The notes beneath the pieces are model-generated. The model was not told the origin of the DNA. It saw only the letters and a list, made by a program, of their open reading frames with translations, and did not search any database. A stretch of DNA of 64,000 nt from Candidatus Multivorans sp. (lineage in GTDB: Bacteria; Acidobacteriota; Thermoanaerobaculia; Multivoradales; Multivoraceae): assembly GCA_965224025.1 (NCBI GenBank), contig OZ245033.1, positions 3,392,001-3,456,000 on the forward strand, given 5' to 3'. This document shows, in pieces, positions 3,123 through 18,759 of the stretch. The position numbers and the translations under genes were made by a program. The number at the start of each line of letters is the position of its first letter. The first letter of the stretch is position 1.

Positions 3123-6092
3123 TCAACGAGCGTCGCCGGAAGCCGGTAGGACCGGCAGTTCCACGGCCCGGCCCCGCAGCATGACGCCAAACACCCGGTG
3201 GCGCTCGGTGAAGACCGACGGCAGCGGCGCGCCCGGGACGTTGCCGCGAAAGCCGGTCCTCAGCAGCCGCGGATCGTCGAACTGCTCGACCACGTCCGGG
3301 CGCCCCGGCCCCGAGCGCCCGACGTTGGCTAGGAACTCACCGTCGCGGTAGATGACGACTTGGCGCGCCGTCTCGGCCCGTTCGAGGTCGGCCGCCCAGC
3401 CCGCGATGCTGGTGCCGCGCCGCAGCGCCGCCACCCGGTCGACCGCGCCGTCGAAGCCGTCGCCGGGCGCATGCACGGGGAGCCGGCGACCGTCCGAGAC
3501 GGGGACGATCTCCCTGCCGCCGCGCCCGCGCTCGAGTGGCCGGTAGGAGAATCGGAGCCGAGTGGCGACGCCGCCGTGACCGACCGCGAAGGCGACGATG
3601 CCCTCGCGCTCGACCTGTTCCCGGTCGGCCGCGAGCCGCAGCGTGAAGCCGTTGTCCCTGAGCGCCGGGCCGCTGAAGGCGGTCGCCTCCGAGCCGACGA
3701 CGGTGACCACCGTGTTGGACCGTCCGGTGTTGACCGCGTCGGACGCCCGGCCGTTGAGCCGGAAGAGCGAGCGGCCGCCTGCCGCGGGCCCCTCGGGCAC
3801 GGTCGCGTCCAGGTATCCCAACAGGTCGCGGGACGGCGGCGCCACCGGCAGCGTCTCCGACGCCCGGGCCTGGTCCCGGACGGAGCTCCGGCGCAGGCCC
3901 TCGATCAAGCCTTCACCGCCTCGCACCGCCTCGTACCGGTACTCGGAATCCACTCGGTAGGCGAAGGCCTCCGGAGAGTCGAGGCGTTCGAGCTCCAGTT
4001 CGCCGTCGCGATCCGTGGCCAGAAACAGGTCGATCCGGTTGTGGCCGGGGTGCAGCAGCGGCTCTGGCAGGATTGCCGAGACCCGAGTCCGGCCGCGCTC
4101 GAAGTGGGCGTGGACGGTGTCCGCCACGATTCCGTTCACGGCGACGACGACGGGTCGGTCCGGGGGCGTTTTCCGATCGACGAGGAACGCTTCGACGACA
4201 GCGGGCAGCAGCGTCGCCTCCAGGTCGATGTCGTCCCAGACGTGGGGGAGCTCGAGTCGAGCGCGGGTTGCGCCGGCGCGCACCGCCAGTTCGGAGACCG
4301 GCCGGCCGTGCAGCTCGGGCAACGAGCCGATCCCCGCCGGGTCGTTCGACTCGCCGAGCAGCGCGGTCTGCTCCGCGAGGCGGGAGCGGCGCCAGGAATC
4401 CCGCTCCGCCGGAACCTCAATTTCGGCGCCGTGCTCACTGAACCACAGTGGAGAGGCGCCGCCCCGCGCGCGTCCCATGCCGGTGTTGCCGGCGTCCCCG
4501 GCGAGTTCCAGCATGAGCGGCGTCAGGTCGACCAGAGAGATGGGACCGCGGTCGATCTCCGGCCGGTCCTGGAACGGCGCCTTGACGATCAGGGGCACGG
4601 CGACAAGGTCCAGGATCTGGCCGCCCGAGGGGTCGGGCGCCGGCAGCCGCAACGACCGGCCCGGCTGGAACGAAAGGCCGTGATCCGCCGCGATCACGAC
4701 CAGGCTGCGGTCGAACAGGTCGAGCGCATCCAGCTTCTCCAGCAGCTCGCCGATCAGCCGGTCCACGAACTGGAGCTGGAGCAGGTAGCGCTTCTGGTGG
4801 TGCTTGACCGTCCAGGCGTCGCTGGTCCAGGTTCCGTCCCTGAGACCGTAGGCCCTGCTGCGGGAGTACCTCCGGCCGGACGGCAGGTACTCCCAGGGAG
4901 CGTGGGGCAGCAGGACGTGCGTGAAGTACAGGCCCGGCCGCGCTCCCGGCGGTCTGATCGAGTCCATGAAGCGGCGGAAGTCGTTGACCCGTTCGTCGTT
5001 CCGGCGATGGGGGTGGGCCCGCGCCAGTTGCCGATCGCCGGGTGTCGAAGGCGCGGCCTCAGCGGTCGCCCGGTCGAAGCCGCTCCAGGTCCGGTCGAGC
5101 GGCGGAATTCGCTCCGCCCACGGTTCCGGCAGCGTCAGGCTGAGCCAGACGAAACGGAGGTCGGAGAGCAGCAGGCCGAAGCGCTGGCCGAAGGGAGGCC
5201 GTTCGTCCTCCAGCAGGTTCCGATCGGGCGGGCACAGCGAGGTGACCGGTTCCATGGCGAAGATGTCGTGGCTCGGCGCGAGCAGCGTGAACAGATTGAC
5301 CGCGTGGTCGGCGGCGGTCGGGAGCCGGCCCCGCTCGGGCGGCGAGCCGGTCAGCATCGCCGGCACCGCGTGGTTCGTCATGTTGGAGGCGGCCGTGGCG
5401 TTGGGATACCACGTGGCGCGGTCGGCGAAGCGCGCCAGATTGGGAAAGCGCCGGCGGTCGATCGCGCCCTCGGCGTCGAGGATCGAGATCATCGACCACT
5501 CGTCGAAGACGGCCAGGACGATCGGCGCCCGGGCGCCGCCGCTGCCCGGAAGCGCCGCGCCGCCGGCCCCGGCGAGGGCGCGCCGCACGTCGCCGTCGAG
5601 CACCAGGACCGCCGGCGCCACGACCGTGGCCCCCGCCACCAGCAGGGCGAGGGAACGAAAGGCGGGGAGGCGGAGGTAGGCCCACGCGACGGCGGCGCAG
5701 GTGGCCAGGGCGACGGTCCCGGCGGCGGCCGCGGGAAGGCCGCGAACGGCCTGCAGCGCGATCGTTCCGACGAGCAGTCCGGCGGCCGCCGCGACCGCCG
5801 GTCGCACCCAAGCCGGGCGGAAGAGCCGGACCGCGGCGGCCGGAACGGAGAGGACGAGGGCGGGGCCGATCGCGGCGAGCGCGACCAGGACCGCGATGTC
5901 AACAAACGCGAGCTGTCGGATGGCGAAGAACTCGGGCGTTCGCCGCAGCAGGTCGTAGACCGGCTGGGCGATCGCGAGTGTGCTCAGTCCGGCGATCGCG
6001 AGAACGCCGCGGCCGAGGCCCGTGCGTCCTCCGGTGCTCCGGGAATCCGGAGAATCGCCGGATGCTGGGAGGACTTGCCGGTTCGCGCCCAA
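3123..6092 (-). CDS. Membrane-anchored alkaline phosphatase/sulfatase-superfamily hydrolase/transferase with long C-terminal extension
   Basis: N-terminal TM helices; IVLAVFDE, HVLLPHAPW, VIAADHG motifs. Confidence 0.8.
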   Translation of the reverse strand: MGANRQVLPASGDSPDSRSTGGRTGLGRGVLAIAGLSTLAIAQPVYDLLRRTPEFFAIRQLAFVDIAVLVALAAIGPALVLSVPAAAVRLFRPAWVRPAVAAAAGLLVGTIALQAVRGLPAAAAGTVALATCAAVAWAYLRLPAFRSLALLVAGATVVAPAVLVLDGDVRRALAGAGGAALPGSGGARAPIVLAVFDEWSMISILDAEGAIDRRRFPNLARFADRATWYPNATAASNMTNHAVPAMLTGSPPERGRLPTAADHAVNLFTLLAPSHDIFAMEPVTSLCPPDRNLLEDERPPFGQRFGLLLSDLRFVWLSLTLPEPWAERIPPLDRTWSGFDRATAEAAPSTPGDRQLARAHPHRRNDERVNDFRRFMDSIRPPGARPGLYFTHVLLPHAPWEYLPSGRRYSRSRAYGLRDGTWTSDAWTVKHHQKRYLLQLQFVDRLIGELLEKLDALDLFDRSLVVIAADHGLSFQPGRSLRLPAPDPSGGQILDLVAVPLIVKAPFQDRPEIDRGPISLVDLTPLMLELAGDAGNTGMGRARGGASPLWFSEHGAEIEVPAERDSWRRSRLAEQTALLGESNDPAGIGSLPELHGRPVSELAVRAGATRARLELPHVWDDIDLEATLLPAVVEAFLVDRKTPPDRPVVVAVNGIVADTVHAHFERGRTRVSAILPEPLLHPGHNRIDLFLATDRDGELELERLDSPEAFAYRVDSEYRYEAVRGGEGLIEGLRRSSVRDQARASETLPVAPPSRDLLGYLDATVPEGPAAGGRSLFRLNGRASDAVNTGRSNTVVTVVGSEATAFSGPALRDNGFTLRLAADREQVEREGIVAFAVGHGGVATRLRFSYRPLERGRGGREIVPVSDGRRLPVHAPGDGFDGAVDRVAALRRGTSIAGWAADLERAETARQVVIYRDGEFLANVGRSGPGRPDVVEQFDDPRLLRTGFRGNVPGAPLPSVFTERHRVFGVMLRGRAVELPVLPASGDAR

Positions 6093-11173: not shown

Positions 11174-12970
11174 GTGATGCACTCCGGCCTCCGCCGCAGA
11201 CTCGCCGAGCTTCCGGATCAGCCGGGGATCTACATTTTCAAGTCGGAGGCCGGCGACGCGCTCTACGTCGGCAAGGCGAAGTCCCTCAAGCGGCGCGCCG
11301 CCTCCTACCGCAAGCCGGCGGAGGATCCGCGCATCGCCTTGATGCTCCAGGACGCGGCCGATATCGAGTTCGTCGTCACGGACTCGGAGGCCGAGGCCCT
11401 GCTGCTCGAGAACAACTGGATCAAGCGCCGGCAGCCCCGCTTCAACATCCGGCTGCGCGACGACAAGACGTACCCGTACCTCAAGCTCACCCTCGCCGAC
11501 GGCCACCCGCGCCTCGCCTTCACCCGGCGCATTCGCCGTGACGGCGCGGAGTACTACGGGCCCTACCTGCCCGCCGGACTGGCGCGCAAGGCGATCAAGC
11601 TGACGCAGAAGCTGTTCGGCATCCGCGTGTGCCGGATCGAGATCGACGGCAGCCTGCCGCGGCCCTGCCTCTACTACGACATGAAGCGCTGCCTGGGGCC
11701 CTGCGTCGACGGCCTGACCACCGACGAGGCCTACGCCGAGGCGGTGGAGAAGGCGCGTCTCTTTCTCGCCGGCAGGAACGACGAGTTGCTGCGGGATCTG
11801 CGCGGCCGCATGAAGACTCATGCAGCCGATCTGGAGTTCGAGGCCGCGGCCCGTGTTCGCGACACGGTGCAGGAAGTCGAACAGGTAAGTCAGCGGCGGA
11901 AGCTCTTCTTGGATAGGGGCGAGGATGTCGACATCTTCGGTGTCCACACCAGCGGCGACAACGCGGCGGTCGTCGTGCTGGTCATGCGCGGCGGCCAGGT
12001 TCTCGATCGTCGCGAGCTGTTCTGGGAGGGGATCTCGAGGATCACCGCCGAACGTCTGCTGTCGGAACTGCTGCCGCAGCTCTACGATCGGACCACCCTG
12101 ATTCCGAAGGAGATCCACCTGCCGGCGCCGATCGAGGGTGAAGAGGCGCTGGCTTCGTGGCTGAGCGAGCGGCGGGAATCGAAGGTCTACCTCCGCATGC
12201 CCTCGCGCGGACCGAAGGCTCAGCGGGTGGCTCTGGCCAACCGGAACGCACGGATGGCCTTCCGCCGGCGGTTCCGTGGCGCCGGGGCCGCCGGCGAGGC
12301 CAGCGAGGCGTTGCGGCGAGCACTCGACCTGGAAGAACCGCCGCGTTGGATCGAAGGCTTCGACATCTCGACCTTCGGCGGCAGCCAGACGGTCGCCTCC
12401 CTGGTGGTTTGGAGCGACGGCCGGATGGTCAAGAACCAGTACCGCAGCTTCAACATCCGGGGTCTGGAGCAGGCCGACGACTTCGCGTCGATCCGCCAGG
12501 CGGTGGAACGCCGCTACCGGCGCCGGCTGGAGGAGGTCGGCGAGATGCCCGACCTGATCCTGATCGACGGAGGGCGCGGCCAGTTGAACGCGGCGCTCGA
12601 AGGTCTGGCGGAACTCGGCGTCGACGAGACGCCGGTAGTTGGGCTGGCCAAGCGGGAGGAGGAGATCTACGTCCCGGCGCGACCGGCCCCGCTGCGGCTG
12701 AAGCGGAATCACGCCGGCCTGCGCGTCCTCCAGCAGGTGCGGGACGAGGCGCACCGGTTCGCCGTGTCGCGGCACCGCCGCCGCCGTTCCAGGCGGACCC
12801 TGCACAGCCGGTTCGACGACCTGCGAGGCATCGGGCCGCAGCGGCGCAAGCTGCTGGTGCGGCGCTTCGGCAGTTACACCGGCGTGACGCAGGCGTCGGA
12901 GGAGCAGCTCCAGGAGGTACTGGGGGCGAAGCTGGCGCGCTCGGTCTTCGACTCGGTCCATCGCGAGTAG
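11174..12970 (+). CDS. uvrC: Excinuclease ABC subunit C
   Basis: GIY-YIG (PGIY, YVGKAKSL), LRDDKTYPY, IDGGRGQL, RDEAHRFA, HhH. Confidence 0.99.
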   Translation: MMHSGLRRRLAELPDQPGIYIFKSEAGDALYVGKAKSLKRRAASYRKPAEDPRIALMLQDAADIEFVVTDSEAEALLLENNWIKRRQPRFNIRLRDDKTYPYLKLTLADGHPRLAFTRRIRRDGAEYYGPYLPAGLARKAIKLTQKLFGIRVCRIEIDGSLPRPCLYYDMKRCLGPCVDGLTTDEAYAEAVEKARLFLAGRNDELLRDLRGRMKTHAADLEFEAAARVRDTVQEVEQVSQRRKLFLDRGEDVDIFGVHTSGDNAAVVVLVMRGGQVLDRRELFWEGISRITAERLLSELLPQLYDRTTLIPKEIHLPAPIEGEEALASWLSERRESKVYLRMPSRGPKAQRVALANRNARMAFRRRFRGAGAAGEASEALRRALDLEEPPRWIEGFDISTFGGSQTVASLVVWSDGRMVKNQYRSFNIRGLEQADDFASIRQAVERRYRRRLEEVGEMPDLILIDGGRGQLNAALEGLAELGVDETPVVGLAKREEEIYVPARPAPLRLKRNHAGLRVLQQVRDEAHRFAVSRHRRRRSRRTLHSRFDDLRGIGPQRRKLLVRRFGSYTGVTQASEEQLQEVLGAKLARSVFDSVHRE

Positions 12971-13069
12971 GTGCGTCCTCAGGGCCGTTCCAAAGTCGAT
13001 GATTCTGCGGTCGGAGGTGCGGACATCACTCTCGGATCGACGGATCGGTGCCGAGCCGGCTCTCCGAGC

Positions 13070-13113
13070 CTGGGAACGCGGGCATCCTGCCCGCATCCGG
13101 CGCGAAGCGCCGG
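13070..13113. repeat. REP-like palindromes GCGGGCATCCTGCCCGC and CCGGCGCGAAGCGCCGG
   Basis: Two adjacent hairpins; the 21 bp at 13093-13113 recurs inverted at 20137-20157. Confidence 0.65.
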
Positions 13114-13138
13114 TCTCTGGGAGTTCTGCCGCGCTAGC

Positions 13139-13977
13139 AGTGCTTTCCAATCCTGAAATGAGCGTGAACGGGACCGTCATGGAGAATCGAGTCGGGTCGG
13201 TCTCGGAGTAGTTCTTGAGCGGCAGACGGTTCTGCACCGTCTGCCGCCTACGGTAGCGGCCGCTGCGAGGCCGCGGCGGCTTACGGGGGTTGTGCTCCGG
13301 CCTGGGCCGGAGGTGGCGTGCGGTGTATGGCATCGGGCTGCGCGGTCTGCGGTTCAGGCGCTCCGGCGCCGGTTGGGATCGGACTCCCGGTCGATGAGTT
13401 CGAAGAGTCGGGCACGAGCCAGCTTGAGGGCGGTCGCGGCGTCGAGGTCGCTCGTGGCGCCGGCCTGGTCTTCGAGGGCGGCGATGGTGACGCCGGGCCT
13501 GAAGTACCGCTGCGCGTCCGGCAGGGCCTTGAGCTTCTCGAACGGCGTCATGGCGTCCTGGTAGCGGTAGCGCTTCCTGGTGCGCCCCTTCTTGTCGGTG
13601 ACCTCGGTGGGAAACAGGCACGGGCGGTGGAAGTTGAGGAAGGGCGTGAGCACATCGCGGGCGAAGGCGTTGACCTCGCGGGCGAACAGCTTGGGGATGT
13701 GCCGGTATCCGAACTGGCGCCGGATCACGTTGCCGTTCCTGGATTCGACCAGGGCGTTGTCGTTGCCGTGCCGGCTGCGGGACTTGGTGAACTCGGGGAC
13801 GTGCAGTTGGTTGAGCATCTCCGCGACCTTGCGGTTGATGTACTCGGAGCCGTTGTCGGCGTGGAAGCCCAGCACCTTGAAGGGGCAGGACTCGATGAGC
13901 TCCCTTGAGCACCGGCGCCAGGCACCGCTGGGAGATGGCCCGCACCGTCGCTACGTGCTCCCCCGCTGGACAGCGCT
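13139..13977 (-). mobile_element. IS remnant (integrase-core DDE transposase, ISNCY/IS481-like): C-terminal half plus right end
   Basis: GFHADNGSEYIN, DNALVESRNG, FLNFHRPC; frameshifted upstream part; terminal sequence 13139-13168 is an imperfect inverted repeat of 15092-15120. Confidence 0.85.
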
Positions 13978-13982
13978 CGGCG

Positions 13983-14010
13983 TTGACAGGCTTGACAGCC
14001 GTGGTACACT
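13983..14010 (+). promoter_or_regulatory. Sigma70-type promoter
   Basis: TTGACA (13983) - 16 nt - TACACT (14005) with extended TGn; second TTGACA at 13992. Confidence 0.7.
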
Positions 14011-14054
14011 ACCGCCCAAACAACGGAGGTCCTCCACAACTAGGAGGTCCTCCA

Positions 14055-14544
14055 ATGAGGAAAGACAGTTGGTTTCGTGGCGCGGTCCTGAGCATCCTGT
14101 TCTTCGCGCTGATCGTGGGTGGCGTTCCGTTGCCGGCCAGCGCGCAACTACCTGACGGTGGCGGCGAAACTATCACCGTTACGGCTCCGGCCCCAACATA
14201 TCAGCCGGGAAACCCGGGGCAAGACACCGGCAAGGCTAGAAGGCGGAGACCGCCCAAAAAGAAAACGAGGCTCGGCGCAGGGACCGCTCAATACTACGAA
14301 ATGCACCGCAGGGTGCAGCGTTGAACAACGTGTGTAGTGACCTAGACTCTGCGCAAACCGCGGTAGCCGTAGCTGCGCTAGCCGCTGCAGTCTTGTCGCT
14401 TGGCTTGGCAGTAGGGGGAATATCCCCGGCGCGGCGATACTCTTGGCCGCCGCCGCGGTTGGGTTCGCCGGCTACAACGCTATGCTGACTTGGTGTAACA
14501 GCACCTTTCGACCTTGGTACGCCACACAATTCAGCGGAGGATAA
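14055..14544 (+). pseudogene. Frameshifted secreted protein (~163 aa reconstructed) with hydrophobic C-terminal hairpin
   Basis: AGGAGG RBS, signal peptide ending ASA|Q; two single-base insertions (within 14240-14321 and at G5 14414-14418) join three segments up to TAA 14542. Confidence 0.6.
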
Positions 14545-14547
14545 CCC

Positions 14548-14637
14548 GTGATCAGTGCAACTTTCGTTTGGCTTGTGTTTGGCGCGGTCGGCATCGTTAT
14601 TGCCGTTCTCGCGCGGCGGGAGAAGCGCCGCGGATGA
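14548..14637 (+). CDS. 29-aa single-TM peptide MISATFVWLVFGAVGIVIAVLARREKRRG
   Basis: GGAGG 7 nt before GTG; hydrophobic helix plus basic tail. Confidence 0.6.
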   Translation: MISATFVWLVFGAVGIVIAVLARREKRRG

Positions 14638-14869
14638 AGCGCTTGCGGTCTCCTGTACTGGGCTTGTCGCGTAGGTTGCGACTTCCGCCCTAGCCGCTTG
14701 GTTGGTTTGTCTCCCCGCCGCGCCGTCGAGTCCGAGGGCGCGGCCGGGAGCGCCGGCCAAGCCCGTAACGGTCCGACCACCGCCCCCCAACGGGTACCCC
14801 CGCGGGGCGCCGTTGGGCCGGGTCCACTCCTGGCCCGGAAGGGCTGAATCAAAACAGACAAGCCCGTGG

Positions 14870-15120
14870 TGAGAATCGGCCTGGTACCGAAACGCACCAG
14901 CGTCTCGCACACGAAACGGTAGGCCGATTCCCGGTCCCAGGAGCGCGATGTCCGCGGCCTCGGCGCCGACCACGAACGCGCGTACATCATTCAGCGTCTC
15001 CAAACGGTGGGTCTGTAGCGACACGATCATCCTCCGATGATCCCCGGTACCAACCGCTCACGCTCAGCTCTCGTTGGATTGACGCACCTCGCTCACGCTC
15101 ACTTCTCATTGGACAGCGCT
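14870..15120 (-). mobile_element. IS remnant: left end and frameshifted N-terminus of the same transposase type as 13139-13977
   Basis: MIVSLQTHRLETLNDVRAFV...RESAYRFVCETLVRF; subterminal 22-bp imperfect direct repeats at 15057 and 15092; IR partner of 13139-13168. Confidence 0.7.
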
Positions 15121-15399
15121 TGTCCGGGCGGTAGCGGTATCCACGCCGCTATAGTCAACAGCGCTTGCGACGACTGGAACGGCATGTCTGACGCGGCGCA
15201 GTGCGCAGGGCTGATTGGCGCCGTTGCCGCCGCGAGTTTTATCGTGGCTGGCTTGGCCGCACAGATAGAGACGGCAGGCGGAGTAACTCTAGCGGGCATT
15301 TTCCTGGTTCTTCGCTACGGTAGGGCGATCGCTTCCTACATGCGGGCAATTGCCGCAGTGCTTACGGAAGGCTGCGCGATGTACTTGTCGACCCTCTAA
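15121..15399 (+). pseudogene. 5'-truncated hydrophobic Cys-containing protein, possible paralog of 14055-14544
   Basis: Open frame begins at the IS end; NSACDD...hydrophobic hairpin...AVLTEGC. Confidence 0.5.
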
Positions 15400-15539
15400 T
15401 GATGGAGTTTCTGAGCCACCCTCTCGGTTTCCTAGCCTTCTGGCTGGCCATCCTGTTTGCTTGTGGACCTACGGCCCGTTTCTGCGGGCGATTTGTAGGC
15501 CGCTGGATGGCACAACGGAAAGCGAACCGCTCCGCTTGA
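15399..15539 (+). CDS. 46-aa membrane peptide MMEFLSHPLGFLAFWLAILFACGPTARFCGRFVGRWMAQRKANRSA
   Basis: TAATG stop/start overlap with upstream ORF; hydrophobic helix plus basic tail. Confidence 0.55.
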   Translation: MMEFLSHPLGFLAFWLAILFACGPTARFCGRFVGRWMAQRKANRSA

Positions 15540-15934
15540 AGCGGGCGGTGTTCGGATTCCTTCCCCACAACCCGGTTCTTTTCCCGGAGTGGCTGGTCCG
15601 TCTGCTCAAACTCTTGTGGAACGCGGCATTGAGGACCTGATCGTCTTCTGCGGCGGCGGCTGAAACGTCGTTTCGGAGAGTGACGCCTACCGCCGCCTCC
15701 GGGCAACCCGGGTGTGGCGGTTTCTACAAGTGGGGCGGCAGCATAGACTCAGGCGCATGCCTCGAACTGCCCGAAACGGTGAAGCCCACGCCATGTAGCA
15801 TGTGGAGCGGGTACCGAGGGCTGATCTCGGCATCGTGTGTACCTCCGCCTCCACGGACGTGGTACTCACAAGCCGACACGACCCTCACCCGTACCTCTGG
15901 GTGCGGGGGGATGGCTCGATGATTCCCCGCAGCA

Positions 15935-16854
15935 GGAGCCTTCGGCAGCTTGTCCAGCACGTTCCTCAGTCGATGCACCCAGCGTCTCTGCTCCCTGGTT
16001 TCGGGCCACACGTCGCGGATCGCGCCACAGGCCCAGAGCGCCGTCGCCGATGGCCAGGACCGGCGCTCGCAGGCCGCGGCGCTTCAGGTCCCGCAGGACG
16101 CTCGACCAGTTCTCCGCGCTCCCCGGTACCCGTCCTCGACCGCGATCAGCTCCTTAGTCCCGTCACGGCGCACACCCAGCAGGACCAGCGTGCACAGGCG
16201 ATCGTCCTCCAGACGGACCCGGAAGTGCACGCCCGTCCGCCCACACGTACACGTAGTCCTCGGCAGGTCCCGTCGCCGGAAGGACCGGTACTCCTCCTCC
16301 CAGGCCGACGTCATCCGCGTGATGCTGGAAGCCGACATGCCCGAGGCCTTGTCCCCCAGCAGGGCATCGAGAGCTTCCCTGAAATCGCCCGTCGAAAGGC
16401 CCCGTACGTACAGCACCGGAAGCACCTCCGACACCTTCGGCGACCGACTCATGTACGGCGGAAGGATCGAACTGGTGAAGCGATGATCAGGCCTCCGATC
16501 ATGCACGCGCGGAGCCTGCACTTTCGCCGTGCCTCCGCCGGTCGTCTCTCGCCGCGGCCGGCCTCTGCCGTTGCGCACCACCAAGGCCCGACCGTCGGTG
16601 CCGCGCTCGGCGCGGTGTCTCTCCACGTAGTCGGCGACTTCGGCGTCCAGAGCCTCCATCAACATCCGGCGAGCGCCCTCGCGGGCCAGCTCATCCAGCG
16701 TCGAGGGGACATTCCCCTCCGGGACGGTTCCAGTATCTTGAGCATCGGGCGGCGTGTCCTTTCTCCCGGCATCCGACCGGGTATTCAGTTGAACACCCAG
16801 GAGGATACGCCGCCTGATCTACATCAACGGATCCACAACTTCTGGCAGTAGCTC
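15935..16854 (-). mobile_element. IS256-family transposase pseudogene with left end
   Basis: LDELAREGARRML, VVRNG, FTSSILPPY, LYVRGLSTGDF, WPETREQRRWVH; frameshifted, 3'-truncated. Confidence 0.9.
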
Positions 16855-16964
16855 ACCTCCTTGGAAAACCGGCAGACCGGTTTCCCCCAGCTACCTCAGC
16901 CCGCTTCCACGGTTGACTCAAAGAGACCGACGAGCCAAGACTCCCGTACAATCAACACGACCGA

Positions 16965-17016
16965 GGTGGCTCACTTTCCAAGCGTTGGATGGCTCACTTT
17001 CCGAGCGTTGCCAACA
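16965..17016. mobile_element. IS21-type terminus remnant
   Basis: Tandem TGGCTCACTTTCC(A/G)AGCGTTG, period 23, ending in CAACA. Confidence 0.65.
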
Positions 17017-17118
17017 GAACTGCCGGTGCCGTACCTGCGGGGTCTGTCGACGGGCGACTTCAAGGAGGCGCTGGCGGCGGACCACCAACGCGATCGAATC
17101 GACCTTCGGCACGCTTCG
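17017..17118 (+). pseudogene. IS256 transposase scraps
   Basis: YLRGLSTGDFKEAL and, in another frame, RTTNAIESTFGTLR. Confidence 0.75.
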
Positions 17119-17450
17119 TTCTGCGTCGAGGCTCTCGATGAGGCCCTGTCCCGTTGCGGCCGGCCCGAGATCTCTAACACGGACCAGGGTTGCCAGTTCA
17201 CCAGCGCGGACTTCACCGGCCTGCTAGAGGAAGCCGAGGTGGCGATCTCGATGGACGGCTGCGGCCGTTGTATGGACAACGTGTTCATCGAGCGTCTCTG
17301 GCGCTCGCTGAAGCACGAGGCCGTGTACCGCCACGAGCTGGCCGACGGCCTCGAGGCGCGGCAGGTGATCGGCGCCTGGCTCGCTTTCTACAATCTCGAG
17401 CGGCCGCATTCATCCCATCAGGGGCAGGACGCCTGCCTACGTCTACCGCG
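17119..17450 (+). pseudogene. IS3-family transposase (OrfB) fragment
   Basis: NTDQGCQFTS, ISMDGCGRCMDNVFIERLWRSLKHE, FYNLERPHSS. Confidence 0.9.
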
Positions 17451-17556
17451 GCGCGAACCGGGATACGACGTCCAACGCTCGGCTCCGGGGCGAGTCGAAT
17501 TTTCCGCAGATTCCGCAGTCTTCCACAGCCCCGGCGGCTGCGGCGAACTGCTTCAT

Positions 17557-18514
17557 CAGTTGCTGCTGGGCTACTTCGAGGGTCTGGACTCGGAGCGGGG
17601 CATCGCGTGGCGGGCTCATGACTCCCTGGGCACTCGTCGGTTCCTCGGTTTGGGGGTGACCGAATCGGCGCCGGATCACTCGACGATTTCGCGCACTCGG
17701 CGGCAGACCGATGTGGAGACTCACCGCAGGGTGTTCCGTCGGTTCTCGGCCGTCTGGCGGAATCGGGTCTGGTGTCGGGCAAAACGGCAGGCGTGGATGC
17801 GACGACTCTGGAGGCGAACGCTGCGCTACGGAGCATCGTGCGTCGCGACACGGGCGAGGACTACGAGGAGTTCGTGCGGGGTCTGGCGGAGGCTTCGGGC
17901 GTGGCCACGCCCGAAGCGGGCGGAGCTGGCCCGTTTCGACCGCAAGCGCAAGAAGAAGCTGTCGAACGAGGAGTCGGAGAATCCTCACGATCCGGACACG
18001 CAGGTCACCAAGATGAAGGATGGCCGCGCGCACCTTGCATGCAAGGCGGAACAGGCGGTGGATCTGGAATGCGGGACCATCCTGGGCGTGCCGGTCCATG
18101 GCAGCGCCAAGGGAGACGGAGTCACTCTTCGGGACACTGGACGAGACCTTCGAGCAGGTGGAGTCGGCAGTCGGCGACTCGGCGGCTGCATCTGCGCGGG
18201 CGCCGCAACGCGCTCAAGCGCCTCTACATTCAGGCCTGCGGCTTCAACCTCGCCCTCCTGATACGTACGCTCGTGAGAGTCGGAACGCCACGGGTGCTCC
18301 AGCGGCGGGCTGCGGCGGTTCTCGACGCTCTGGTCGGCCCACATGCGACGCTCTGGGAACGACTTGCCGAGCCATTCCGGCGGCTCCTCGCCCGATGGCA
18401 GGCAAACCGCGCCGCGATGCGTCCCCAGTTCAATCTCGCCTTCCCTGGCGCCAACGTCGACTCTGGAGAAGACAGCATCGCTCGGACCGCACGACCGCTG
18501 CCACGGGCTGTTAG
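17557..18514 (+). mobile_element. IS1182-like transposase pseudogene with right end
   Basis: GYFEGLDSERGIAWR, PDHSTISRTR, VDATTLEANAA, KMKDGR, GFNLALL; several frameshifts and an internal deletion. Confidence 0.8.
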
Positions 18515-18759
18515 CCTGGACCTGAAACCGTCCAACGAAACGGGACCACCTCAGCGAGGCCGCTCGCACCGAGCCTGAGTTCCAGTTCGGCCCGGCCGAC
18601 GGGTGCGAGGAGCAGGTCCAGGGCATCGCGTGCTCGGGTGGCGAGAGCAACGTGGTCGGTGAGGACCGCCCCTACCCTTGGTGAGTCGACGCACGTCGGG
18701 CTGAGAGCCGGAGGCGGAAGGCCGGGCGTTCGCGTACGAGAGATGCTAGTCTTCCTCGC

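What the first reader, a model, noticed from the sequence alone, without database searches (positions are those of the whole stretch)
13983..15539. Two tandem 'hydrophobic-hairpin protein + tiny membrane peptide' modules: candidate undescribed toxin/immunity system
Seen: a consensus promoter and AGGAGG precede an ORF at 14055 with a signal peptide. Restoring two single bases gives ~163 aa ending ...AALNNVCSDLDSAQTAVAVAALAAAVLSLGLAVGGNIPGAAILLAAAAVGFAGYNAMLTWCNSTF..., followed 3 nt later by a 29-aa TM peptide with a basic tail. A second, 5'-truncated ORF (15121-15399) has the same layout (AIVNSACDD...Ala/Gly-rich hydrophobic hairpin...AVLTEGC). It is coupled by TAATG to a 46-aa TM peptide with a basic tail. 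The stretch looks less GC-rich than the flanks. Known: pore-forming bacteriocins and microcins use hydrophobic helices and have small adjacent membrane immunity genes. Inference: these are decayed members of a polymorphic family of Sec-exported, disulfide-closed membrane toxins with cognate immunity peptides.
Basis: partly seen in the sequence, partly recalled or inferred. Interest (0 to 1): 0.8.

Follow-up and report, generated by a model that had tools for sequence, protein, structure and literature searches.

The report
Decayed leader-tagged toxin-like gene cassettes
Two broken copies of a small, previously unnamed two-gene cassette of Acidobacteriota, most likely a secreted membrane-damaging peptide with its protective membrane peptide, which relatives carry intact in a dozen interchangeable versions.

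Summary
Window 13968-14879 is a ~910-nt cassette: sigma-70-like promoter, a 5'UTR with two GGAGGTCCTCC 11-mers, a gene with a Sec-type leader, and a 29-aa membrane peptide 3 nt downstream. A relative (L006) has the same cassette at 95% identity with an intact 163-aa gene. The window copy has two 1-nt deletions. The second module (15109-15539) has lost its promoter, UTR and leader. Its intact homologues (138-142 aa) carry the same leader as module 1.

The family is very rare: 2 hits in 1.84 billion representatives, no Pfam or NCBIfam match, and all 19 fetched loci are Acidobacteriota MAGs. It has a conserved UTR and leader and at least 12 unrelated mature domains. All 20 members have an even number of cysteines. 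In 19 of 20 the last pair brackets a C-terminal stretch of 43-66 residues, usually two hydrophobic or amphipathic helices. A small hydrophobic ORF abuts the stop codon in 13 of 19 loci, against 2 of 157 control genes.

A bacteriocin-like toxin plus immunity peptide is the best reading (about 0.5), but toxicity, export and protection are untested. This is a new variant of a known kind; the window copies are relics in a patch of transposase debris.

The parts
13968..14879 (+). Cassette 1 as a unit (promoter to 3' non-coding tail)
   Evidence: blastn: 95% identity to L006 5915-6830, with unrelated sequence on both sides
13983..14010 (+). Sigma-70-like promoter TTGACA-16-TACACT with TG
   Evidence: 10 of 12 matches; 1 site found against 0.2 expected. 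The same zone is conserved in several loci
14025..14053 (+). 5'UTR element: two GGAGGTCCTCC 11-mers (14025-14035, 14043-14053). The second one holds the Shine-Dalgarno. The two pair with each other as RNA
   Evidence: These are the only exact copies in the window. All 32 exact copies in the 19 loci lie within 70 nt upstream of the family ATG
14055..14544 (+). Module 1 gene (type A), a pseudogene. The leader is 14055-14144. One-base deletions next to 14318 and in the G-run 14415-14419 split it over three frames
   Evidence: The intact 163-aa orthologue is at L006 6001-6492
14548..14637 (+). 29-aa single-pass membrane peptide with a basic tail; candidate immunity partner of module 1; intact
   Evidence: 100% protein identity to L006 6496-6585, with 1 synonymous and 0 non-synonymous changes
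14638..14879 (+). G+C-rich non-coding 3' tail of cassette 1
   Evidence: Shared with L006 only. No Rfam match
13387..13896 (-). C-terminal remnant of a DDE-type (rve-like) transposase, abutting cassette 1
   Evidence: 55% identity to residues 253-385 of the intact 419-aa P0009; tblastn
14836..15030 (-). Weak N-terminal remnant of the same transposase type
   Evidence: 32% identity over 60 aa, E 5e-4
15022..15119 (+). Remnant of the transposase-proximal element end, with direct repeats at 15055-15078 and 15090-15113. It is fused directly to module 2, where a promoter, UTR and leader would be
   Evidence: blastn to L006 5829-5919 and L007 5858-5921; repeat family D5
15109..15399 (+). Module 2 gene (type B), 5'-truncated: no promoter, UTR or leader
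   Evidence: tblastn: 62-75% identity to P0001, P0003 and P0004 from residue ~43 onward. Helix 1 is hydrophobic and helix 2 amphipathic, with a hydrophobic moment of 0.47-0.58
15399..15539 (+). 46-aa membrane peptide with a basic tail; candidate immunity partner of module 2; intact
   Evidence: 87% identity to P0011 (51 aa). P0011's contig length (1714) and source label equal those of the intact type-B protein P0004

Best explanation
The stretch holds two relics of a self-contained two-gene cassette that is specific to Thermoanaerobaculia-like Acidobacteriota.

An intact cassette has these parts:
- its own promoter;
- a 5'UTR in which 2-4 tandem GGAGGTCCTCC 11-mers fold into a 10-bp hairpin that buries the ribosome-binding site;
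- a gene for a protein of 111-192 aa with a strongly conserved Sec-type leader and a hypervariable mature part (at least 12 unrelated types). The mature part ends in a stretch of 43-66 residues bracketed by two cysteines, usually two hydrophobic or amphipathic helices;
- a 28-76-aa one- or two-pass membrane peptide gene that abuts or overlaps the stop codon and changes together with the mature domain.

Most likely mechanism (inferred, not shown):
1. Translation is held low by the UTR hairpin.
2. The protein is exported by Sec and the leader is cut at the AxA-like site.
3. The helical hairpin is stapled by a periplasmic disulfide and enters the cytoplasmic membrane from outside, damaging it as membrane-active bacteriocins and microcins do.
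4. The co-translated small peptide shields the producer within the membrane.

In the window, copy 1 keeps its promoter, UTR, leader and peptide gene, but the toxin-like gene has two 1-nt deletions. Copy 2 has lost its promoter, UTR and leader at a junction with a transposase-end remnant. Neither can make the full protein; both small peptide genes are intact.
For: Shown:
- An intact 163-aa orthologue with an identical 29-aa partner exists in L006.
- Intact type-B homologues carry the same leader.
- Leader codons 1-20 are under purifying selection: mean dS 0.66, dN 0.11 over 66 pairs. Type-D mature domains have omega 0.28-0.31. These are therefore real genes.
- Conservation is confined to -70..+78 (0.71-0.77 identity, against 0.50-0.52 in every other segment; 55 pairs).
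- 20 of 20 members have an even number of mature cysteines. In 19 of 20 the last pair spans 43-66 residues and ends 0-16 residues from the C-terminus.
- An adjacent small hydrophobic ORF is present in 13 of 19 loci, against 2 of 157 control genes and 84 of 5000 random positions.
- Partners resemble each other within a type. L008 and L010 are 50% identical. The module 2 peptide and P0011 are 87% identical. The 86-aa partner is shared by L004, L005 and L007.
- The one clearly soluble 8-Cys member (L015) is followed instead by a 158-aa signal-peptide protein.
- The hairpin that buries the Shine-Dalgarno is the minimum-energy fold in 9 of 12 UTRs (-19.8 to -22.3 kcal/mol; z -3.3 to -4.4). L017 has a different hairpin that also holds the GGAGG.
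- All 20 have an AxA-like site; none has a lipobox or a double-glycine leader.

Background from papers (passages read):
- Sec-dependent class IIa bacteriocins exist, and a disulfide can staple their C-terminal hairpin (PMC3546714).
- Immunity proteins of class II microcins usually span the inner membrane (PMC12219008).
- CdzI is a small transmembrane immunity protein (PMC5380434).
Against: - No functional data of any kind.
- No match to any toxin, bacteriocin or immunity family: Pfam on 17 members and 9 partners gave nothing above cut-off; NCBIfam gave nothing; PADLOC gave nothing with E below 0.25; PDB by sequence gave 0 hits at E<=10.
- The AlphaFold models are of low confidence (pLDDT 57.1 and 54.2). 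Foldseek gave 0 hits at E<=0.001. The Cys-Cys distance could not be measured.
- No route across the outer membrane of a diderm producer was found. The 69 flanking ORFs scanned in the 19 loci include no peptidase-ABC exporter or membrane-fusion protein.
- L015 and L019 have no hydrophobic segment beyond the leader, and types D and L018 have weak ones.
- L018 has no partner. L004, L005, L007 and L012 have theirs about 180-210 nt downstream, and L012's is cut short at 39 aa.
- Partner and mature domain changing together is also what simple linkage would give.
- Three pairs of loci are near-duplicates (L002/L003, L004/L005, L016/L017), so there are 16 distinct cassettes, not 19.
Confidence: 0.5

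Rival explanations
1. Addiction (toxin-antitoxin-like) module. The membrane hairpin protein poisons only its own producer when the labile small peptide is lost. This stabilises the mobile DNA next to which the cassette sits. There is no killing of neighbours.
For: - Cassettes lie beside IS elements, toxin-antitoxin genes or conjugation genes in many loci: IS21, DDE_Tnp_1_4 and Mutator transposases; PIN, HEPN/NT and Phd; a TraG-like coupling protein.
- A DDE transposase abuts the promoter in L006, L010 and L015, with remnants in L007 and in the window.
- A buried Shine-Dalgarno is typical of mRNAs of small membrane toxins (my own knowledge of type I systems).
- No export route beyond Sec was found.
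Against: - A conserved Sec leader and paired periplasmic cysteines are not features of known type I toxins (my own knowledge).
- At least 12 unrelated cargo types behind one leader look more like diversification under between-cell conflict.
- 11 of the 19 loci show no mobile-element gene among the flanking ORFs scanned.
Confidence: 0.2
2. Non-toxic envelope proteins: variable, disulfide-stabilised, membrane-anchored or periplasmic proteins with a small membrane partner that helps insertion or anchoring. Possible roles are phage or conjugation exclusion, or contact with a host. The diversity would come from selection by phages or a host.
For: - The only universal features are the leader, an even cysteine count and the bracketed C-terminal domain. 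The hydrophobic hairpin is not universal.
- No similarity to any toxin family.
- Within a type the mature domain is under ordinary purifying selection (omega about 0.3).
Against: - Tight coupling to a type-specific small membrane ORF, strict translational occlusion and repeated decay of the large gene while the small one stays intact (window modules 1 and 2; P0006) fit a harmful product better.
- PADLOC found nothing.
Confidence: 0.2
3. Pilin-like subunit (VirB2/TrbC- or Flp-type: leader plus two hydrophobic helices) with a VirB3-like small membrane partner.
For: The layout of a leader plus two hydrophobic helices resembles VirB2/TrbC (my own knowledge). L008 gave a sub-threshold Flp_Fap hit (E 0.057, 13.7 bits against a cut-off of 32.2). 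L016 and L017 lie near a VirB11-sized ATPase and a TraG-like protein.
Against: No TrbC or Flp match reached its cut-off in any of 17 members. No secretion genes lie nearby in the other 17 loci. In L016 and L017 those genes are on the opposite strand. A pilin would not come in 12 unrelated versions behind one leader.
Confidence: 0.03
4. Chance ORFs, or frameshifts that are assembly errors, so that nothing is decayed.
For: The second deletion and the frameshift in P0006 lie in G-runs, where long-read assemblies err.
Against: The family is conserved across 19 loci with dN well below dS. Outside 13000-18700, intact long ORFs cover 0.84 of the window, including ORFs of 1144, 989, 875 and 843 aa. 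Two indels within 100 nt therefore far exceed the local error rate. The first deletion is not in a long run. Module 2's truncation is structural.
Confidence: 0.04

Closest known systems
Class II microcins of Gram-negative bacteria (PMC12219008, passages read)
   Same: Small (<150-190 aa) ribosomal proteins with a conserved N-terminal signal and highly diverse cores. They are often Gly/Ala-rich and bear cysteines. They act from the periplasmic side. The cognate immunity protein is usually a small inner-membrane protein encoded alongside.
   Different: The leader here is a hydrophobic Sec-type signal, not a double-glycine leader (0 of 20 match either published motif). No peptidase-ABC exporter or membrane-fusion protein lies nearby. 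The phylum is Acidobacteriota; that paper's text has no occurrence of 'acidobacteri'. There is no sequence similarity to any Pfam family.
Sec-dependent class IIa (pediocin-like) bacteriocins of Gram-positive bacteria (PMC3546714, passages read)
   Same: Sec signal peptide. A short N-terminal disulfide loop followed by a C-terminal helical hairpin tied by a second disulfide between mid-helix and the C-terminus. The immunity gene lies immediately downstream in the same operon.
   Different: No YGNGV box (0 of 20). The mature parts are 2-4 times longer. The producer is diderm. The partners are 28-76-aa membrane peptides, whereas class IIa immunity proteins are cytosolic and of about 100 aa (recalled, not from a call).
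CdzC/CdzD-CdzI contact-dependent glycine-zipper bacteriocins (PMC5380434, passages read)
   Same: Small, very hydrophobic Gly/Ala-rich proteins with a small transmembrane immunity protein in the same operon. G...G...G occurs in 8 of 20 members here.
   Different: [quoted passage not shown] No T1SS genes were found here.
Polymorphic toxin systems with orphan modules
   Same: A constant 5' part, swappable 3' toxin domains each with its own downstream immunity gene, and 5'-truncated 'orphan' toxin-immunity pairs downstream of a full-length gene. This is the layout of window modules 1 and 2.
   Different: The constant part here is only about 150 nt (UTR plus leader), not a large delivery domain. 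There is no T5, T6 or T7 secretion context. Module 2's truncation lies at a transposase-end junction, so it may be plain decay and not a stored cassette.

Membership tests
Class II microcins | [quoted passage not shown] | tested here: not met
   0 of 20 members match either motif (motifs)
Class II microcins | Dedicated peptidase-containing ABC transporter and membrane-fusion protein | tested here: not met
   Pfam on 69 flanking ORFs of the 19 loci found only two plain ABC_tran ATPases (L009, L010), with no C39 peptidase and no HlyD-type protein. Only about 6 kb on each side was examined
Class II microcins | Small protein with an adjacent inner-membrane immunity protein | tested here: met
   Members are 111-192 aa. 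An adjacent hydrophobic ORF is present in 13 of 19 loci, against 2 of 157 controls. The immunity function itself was not tested
Class II microcins | Antibacterial activity relieved by the immunity protein | not testable with these tools
   Needs expression assays
Class IIa (pediocin-like) bacteriocins | YGNGV/L box in the N-terminal domain | tested here: not met
   0 of 20
Class IIa (pediocin-like) bacteriocins | C-terminal helical hairpin stapled by a disulfide | tested here: inconclusive
   The cysteine pair spans 43-66 residues in 19 of 20. AlphaFold gives helix-turn-helix with the two Cys 23-28 residues from the turn. pLDDT is only 54-57 and no coordinates were available to measure the distance
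Cdz-type glycine-zipper bacteriocins | Extended GxxxGxxxG zipper and type I secretion | tested here: not met
   G...G...G occurs in 8 of 20 only. No T1SS genes were found
Polymorphic toxin-immunity systems (general definition) | Constant N-terminal or 5' part, variable C-terminal domains, and an immunity gene directly downstream that changes with the toxin domain | tested here: met
   Identity is 0.71-0.77 in -70..+78 against 0.50-0.52 elsewhere. There are at least 12 mature types. Partners are type-specific
Polymorphic toxin-immunity systems (general definition) | Demonstrated toxin domain and a dedicated delivery apparatus | tested here: not met
   No known toxin domain and no T5, T6 or T7 genes in the flanks
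Sec/signal peptidase I substrates | Basic n-region, hydrophobic h-region, AxA-like c-region; no lipobox and no twin arginine | tested here: met
   AxA-like site in 20 of 20; lipobox in 0 of 20; twin-arginine-like motif in 1 of 20. A hydrophobic segment spans residues 5-30 in all members. No dedicated signal-peptide predictor was available
VirB2/TrbC or Flp pilins | Match to the pilin family profile and a secretion-system operon context | tested here: not met
   No hit above cut-off in 17 members; the best was Flp_Fap at 13.7 bits against a cut-off of 32.2. The genomic contexts vary

The most novel reading that the evidence does not exclude
This is an undescribed class of Sec-leader 'cassette bacteriocins' confined to Thermoanaerobaculia-like Acidobacteriota.

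A ~150-nt constant module (tandem GGAGGTCCTCC repeats that form a translational off-switch, plus a leader kept by selection at the amino-acid level) would serve as both a common export/control handle and a recombination handle. Behind it, at least a dozen unrelated disulfide-stapled toxin domains, each with its own membrane or periplasmic immunity partner, would be exchanged.

A DDE transposase that repeatedly sits exactly at the promoter would help move or remodel these cassettes. The window would then show the graveyard stage of such an arms race: toxins dead, immunity peptides kept.
Probability: 0.35. Interest if true: 0.75.

Novelty: new variant of a known kind. Interest (0 to 1): 0.6.

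Why it matters
If the function holds, the conserved leader and UTR give a simple search handle for a whole set of unrelated membrane-active peptides and their protective partners. These come from a phylum where no bacteriocin system has been described in the searched literature. The approach would parallel the way the double-glycine signal opened up the microcins (PMC12219008).

It would also show that a diderm bacterium can build a polymorphic toxin-immunity system on nothing more than the general Sec pathway. That raises the open question of how such peptides reach other cells.

The tandem SD/anti-SD 11-mer hairpin is a compact, portable translational lock worth testing in its own right.

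For annotating this window, the practical result is that 13.0-18.7 kb is a patch of decayed mobile DNA, and neither large gene is functional.

Tried and rejected
- Family libraries gave nothing. Pfam and NCBIfam on all window pieces gave no hit above cut-off; the 29-aa peptide's Loki-CTERM hit, at 19.4 bits, falls just under its 19.9-bit cut-off. The same holds for Pfam on 17 members and 9 partners, PADLOC and Rfam with permissive filters over 13300-16200 (0 hits).
- Structure searches gave nothing. PDB by profile gave 0 hits at E<=10. Both AlphaFold jobs gave low-confidence helical models. Foldseek against PDB returned only generic helical hairpins (best E 1.2), which I do not use. A second Foldseek job was not run because of the low model confidence.
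- tblastn of L006 and P0004 against the plasmid and phage collections gave no match.
- A possible extra leaderless copy in L014 (8824-8997, E 1e-4) was inspected and rejected as a low-complexity match.
- No further copy lies in the window outside 13900-15600 (best outside hit E 0.009).
- A RiPP-precursor reading was rejected. No modifying enzyme is conserved next to the cassettes; only L009 has a radical SAM/SPASM gene upstream.
- My first control for adjacent ORFs used only the first start codon after a stop and missed the partners in L014 and L019. It was replaced by the fairer count.
- The first related-loci query (A2) had no conserved block. It was re-sent as A3.
The contigs that encode P0001, P0003, P0004, P0006, P0007 and P0008 could therefore not be inspected for partners, and the rest of the window's own genome could not be searched.
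Full report
**1. What is in the window**

The region lies in a window of 68.5% G+C, in a 5.7-kb patch (13000-18700) where long high-GC3 ORFs cover only 0.19 of the sequence. Elsewhere in the window they cover 0.84. uvrC (11174-12970) lies to the left. Transposase fragments lie on both sides: an rve-like fragment at 13354-13875(-), a Mutator-family fragment at 16084-16665(-), and an rve_3/DUF772 ORF at 16861-18261.

- the promoter-like site at 13983-14010;
- AGGAGG and ATG 14055;
- a signal-peptide-like start;
- continuation of the reading frame in two successive -1 frames to 14544;
- the 29-aa ORF 3 nt further on;
- the ORF ending at 15399, overlapping by TAATG with a 46-aa ORF;
- lower G+C than the flanks.

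**2. Intact relatives exist and confirm the reconstruction**

A word-indexed search with module 2 found four proteins. Two of them (P0003, 140 aa; P0004, 142 aa) start with a leader, MR(K/T)DSWFRGALLSVLFF..., that the window copy lacks. The same leader opens module 1 (score 100-113 against 19 +/- 4 in shuffles; 0 of 2000 shuffles reached it).

A profile of this type, run against 1.84 billion representative proteins, found only two proteins: P0001 and P0008. The family is extremely rare.

A scan of one genome per species with the leader patterns gave 19 loci. All are metagenome-assembled genomes titled Candidatus Multivorans, Thermoanaerobaculia, Vicinamibacteraceae, Holophagales or Acidobacteria(ota). 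Ca. Multivorans belongs to Acidobacteriota, class Thermoanaerobaculia. I did not establish the habitat of these genomes.

L006 carries the same cassette as window 13968-14879 at 95% identity, with unrelated sequence on both sides. Its gene is intact at 163 aa and is followed after 3 nt by the identical 29-aa ORF. Relative to L006 the window lacks one base next to 14318 and one G of the run 14415-14419, and has one extra T in the UTR loop.

Between the two copies the in-frame N-terminal part has 9 synonymous and 3 non-synonymous differences. The decay is therefore recent. A third orthologue (P0006, another contig) is broken at a different G-run. Assembly error is unlikely as a general explanation, because the rest of the window has long intact ORFs. 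Read-level data were not available.

**3. Anatomy of the family**

There are twenty distinct full-length members: 16 from loci, plus P0003, P0004, P0007 and P0008. They share:
- a leader with an AxA-like site, in 20 of 20;
- an even number of mature cysteines, in 20 of 20;
- a last cysteine pair spanning 43-66 residues and ending 0-16 residues from the C-terminus, in 19 of 20. L015, with 8 Cys, is the exception.

The bracketed stretch usually holds two hydrophobic segments. L015 and L019 have none, and type D and L018 have weak ones. In window module 2 the first helix is uniformly hydrophobic (H 0.65-0.77, moment below 0.1). The second is strongly amphipathic (moment 0.47-0.58) with a stripe of arginines.

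By tblastn at E<=1e-3 the mature parts fall into at least 12 mutually unrelated types:
- type A: window module 1, L006, L008, L010;
- type B: window module 2, P0001, P0003, P0004, P0008;
- type C: L002/L003, L009, L014;
- type D: L004/L005, L007, L012;
- eight singletons.

DNA identity among 11 cassettes (55 pairs) is 0.71 in -70..-1 and 0.77 in +1..+78. It is 0.50-0.52, the level of unrelated sequence under this scoring, in every other segment. The leader is kept by selection on the protein (dS 0.66, dN 0.11). Within type D the mature domain has omega of about 0.3.

**4. The downstream small ORF**

Any start codon from -31 to +25 of the stop was allowed, with an ORF of 25-80 aa and a 17-residue Kyte-Doolittle mean of at least 1.85. 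By this count:

| Set | With an adjacent small hydrophobic ORF |
|---|---|
| Family loci | 13 of 19 |
| Other called genes in the same loci | 2 of 157 |
| Random positions | 84 of 5000 |

Three pairs of loci are near-duplicates, so the independent count is 10 of 16. Of the six loci without a hit:
- L004, L005 and L007 have an 86-aa ORF with two hydrophobic segments about 180 nt downstream;
- L012 has a shortened version of it;
- L015 has an overlapping 158-aa signal-peptide ORF;
- L018 has nothing.

Partners resemble each other within a type. L008 and L010 are 50% identical. The window's 46-aa peptide and P0011 are 87% identical, and P0011's contig length and source label equal those of the intact type-B protein P0004. 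That suggests the two lie on one contig, but does not prove it. Partners are unrelated between types.

No accessory gene is conserved. The 69 flanking ORFs scanned give varied housekeeping contexts, frequent IS and toxin-antitoxin genes, and no dedicated exporter.

**5. A conserved 5'UTR element**

The exact 11-mer GGAGGTCCTCC occurs twice in the window, only at 14025 and 14043. It occurs 32 times in the 19 loci, always within 70 nt upstream of the family start codon. It is found in 14 of 19 loci, in 2-4 copies spaced 17-19 nt apart. L008 has the variant GGAGGGCCTCC twice.

As RNA, two copies pair into a 10-bp stem with one central mismatch that contains the Shine-Dalgarno. This is the minimum-energy and centroid fold in 9 of 12 UTRs tested (-19.8 to -22.3 kcal/mol; z -3.3 to -4.4; 0-2 of 200 shuffles fold as well). 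It is weaker in L011 and absent in L014. In L017 it is replaced by a different hairpin that also holds the GGAGG. The window's copy folds the same way, although over a longer stretch its z is only -1.68.

There is no informative covariation, because the repeats hardly vary. A role as a protein-binding palindrome in DNA is not excluded.

**6. Link to a transposase**

In L010 and L015 an intact 419-aa DDE-type (rve-like) transposase is transcribed divergently. It starts 134 nt from the family ATG. It scores below the cut-off for IS481 in NCBIfam, and its plasmid homologues are annotated as integrase or DDE-type transposase. L006 has a frameshifted copy.

These three loci share one homology block from about 4416 to about 6054 (81-85% identity). 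The block covers the transposase, promoter, UTR and the first ~13-18 leader codons, although L015's mature domain is unrelated to those of L006 and L010.

The window has a C-terminal remnant of this transposase abutting cassette 1 (55% identity). It also has the transposase-proximal end, with its two subterminal repeats, fused directly to module 2 at 15022-15119. L007 has the same end remnant.

Module 2 therefore probably once had the L010-like layout and lost its promoter, UTR and leader by a deletion. Whether the element targets the cassette's 5' edge or carries it along is open.

**7. Interpretation**

The best reading is a bacteriocin-like, Sec-exported, disulfide-stapled helical-hairpin protein that damages the cytoplasmic membrane from the periplasmic side. 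It would be kept silent by the UTR hairpin and neutralised in the producer by the type-specific small membrane peptide.

This rests on architecture and on analogy:
- class II microcins have a conserved signal, diverse cores and inner-membrane immunity proteins (PMC12219008, passages);
- Sec-dependent class IIa bacteriocins can have a disulfide-tied C-terminal hairpin and an immunity gene directly downstream (PMC3546714, passages);
- CdzC/D pair with CdzI (PMC5380434, passages).

The family is not a member of any of these. The double-glycine motif (0 of 20), the YGNG box (0 of 20) and a dedicated exporter are all missing.

Shown: the cassette, its conservation, the cysteine bracket, the partner ORF, the UTR fold prediction and the decay in the window. 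Inferred: export, cleavage, disulfide formation, toxicity and immunity.

The main gaps are the absence of any route across the outer membrane and of any functional or confident structural evidence. An addiction-type module and a non-toxic variable envelope protein remain live rivals.

**8. Novelty**

Full-text searches found no paper for Candidatus Multivorans, for the leader motif, or for Thermoanaerobaculia with toxin, immunity and polymorphic. Papers combining sponge, Acidobacteriota, symbiont and bacteriocin (7 listed, seen as the search listing only) did not appear to describe such a family. The search library does not cover subscription journals.

I rate this a new variant of a known kind. 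The logic is that of a leader-tagged bacteriocin with immunity. What is new is the Sec-type conserved leader, the tandem SD/anti-SD UTR, the cysteine-bracketed modular cargo, and the restriction to one group of Acidobacteriota. The window itself holds only two dead copies.

Noticed in passing
window 14025-14053; L001-L019, within 70 nt upstream of the family ATG: Tandem GGAGGTCCTCC 11-mers (2-4 copies, spaced 17-19 nt apart) occur only in front of family genes. They are predicted to fold into a hairpin that buries the Shine-Dalgarno. Each unit is also a near-palindrome in DNA, so it could be an operator instead.
   Followed up: partly
L010 and L015 4608-5867(-); L006 4580-5837(-); window 13387-13896(-) and 15022-15119; L007 5858-5921: A DDE-type 419-aa transposase sits divergently at a fixed distance from the cassette promoter in three loci, with remnants in two more. 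One homology block covers the transposase, promoter, UTR and the first ~13-18 leader codons, even when the mature domains are unrelated.
   Followed up: partly
window 13000-18700: A 5.7-kb patch of decayed mobile DNA with only 0.19 coverage by long high-GC3 ORFs. It holds a Mutator-family transposase fragment (16084-16665, -), an rve_3/DUF772 fusion ORF (16861-18261, +) and a 53-nt inverted repeat (16370-16422 / 17020-17072).
   Followed up: partly
protein P0006 (89 aa, from another contig): An orthologue of module 1 that leaves the frame at a different place (a G-run after ...QPGNPG) and then reads the window's other frame. The type-A gene is thus broken independently in two of the three close copies seen.
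   Followed up: partly
L007 4669-5748 and 7109-7327: A sodium:alanine symporter gene that is intact upstream of the cassette in L004, L005 and L012 is in two pieces on either side of the cassette in L007, next to a Mutator-family transposase.
   Followed up: no
L015 6001-6480 and 6453-6929: A family member with 8 cysteines and no hydrophobic hairpin is followed by a 158-aa signal-peptide protein instead of a membrane peptide. The partner's predicted location matches that of the large protein.
   Followed up: no
L016 2272-5640(-); L017 5354-9016(-): One cassette type lies about 1.7 kb from a VirB11-sized T2SSE ATPase and a TraG/TraD-like coupling protein, which suggests a conjugative element.
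   Followed up: partly
L001-L019, family genes: Family genes have lower G+C than the neighbouring genes in 16 of 16 distinct loci (mean 0.61 against 0.68). The GC3 contrast (0.68 against 0.84) is inflated, because the neighbours were picked by a GC3 filter.
   Followed up: yes
window 15680-15922 (+): An 80-aa cysteine-rich ORF just downstream of module 2. It gave only chance-level matches to family members (E about 0.2).
   Followed up: no
L012 and L013, around 5995-6003: These two members have no ATG at the usual start and appear to begin at a TTG one codon upstream. Their last 11-mer copy is degenerate (GGAGGATCTCT).
   Followed up: no
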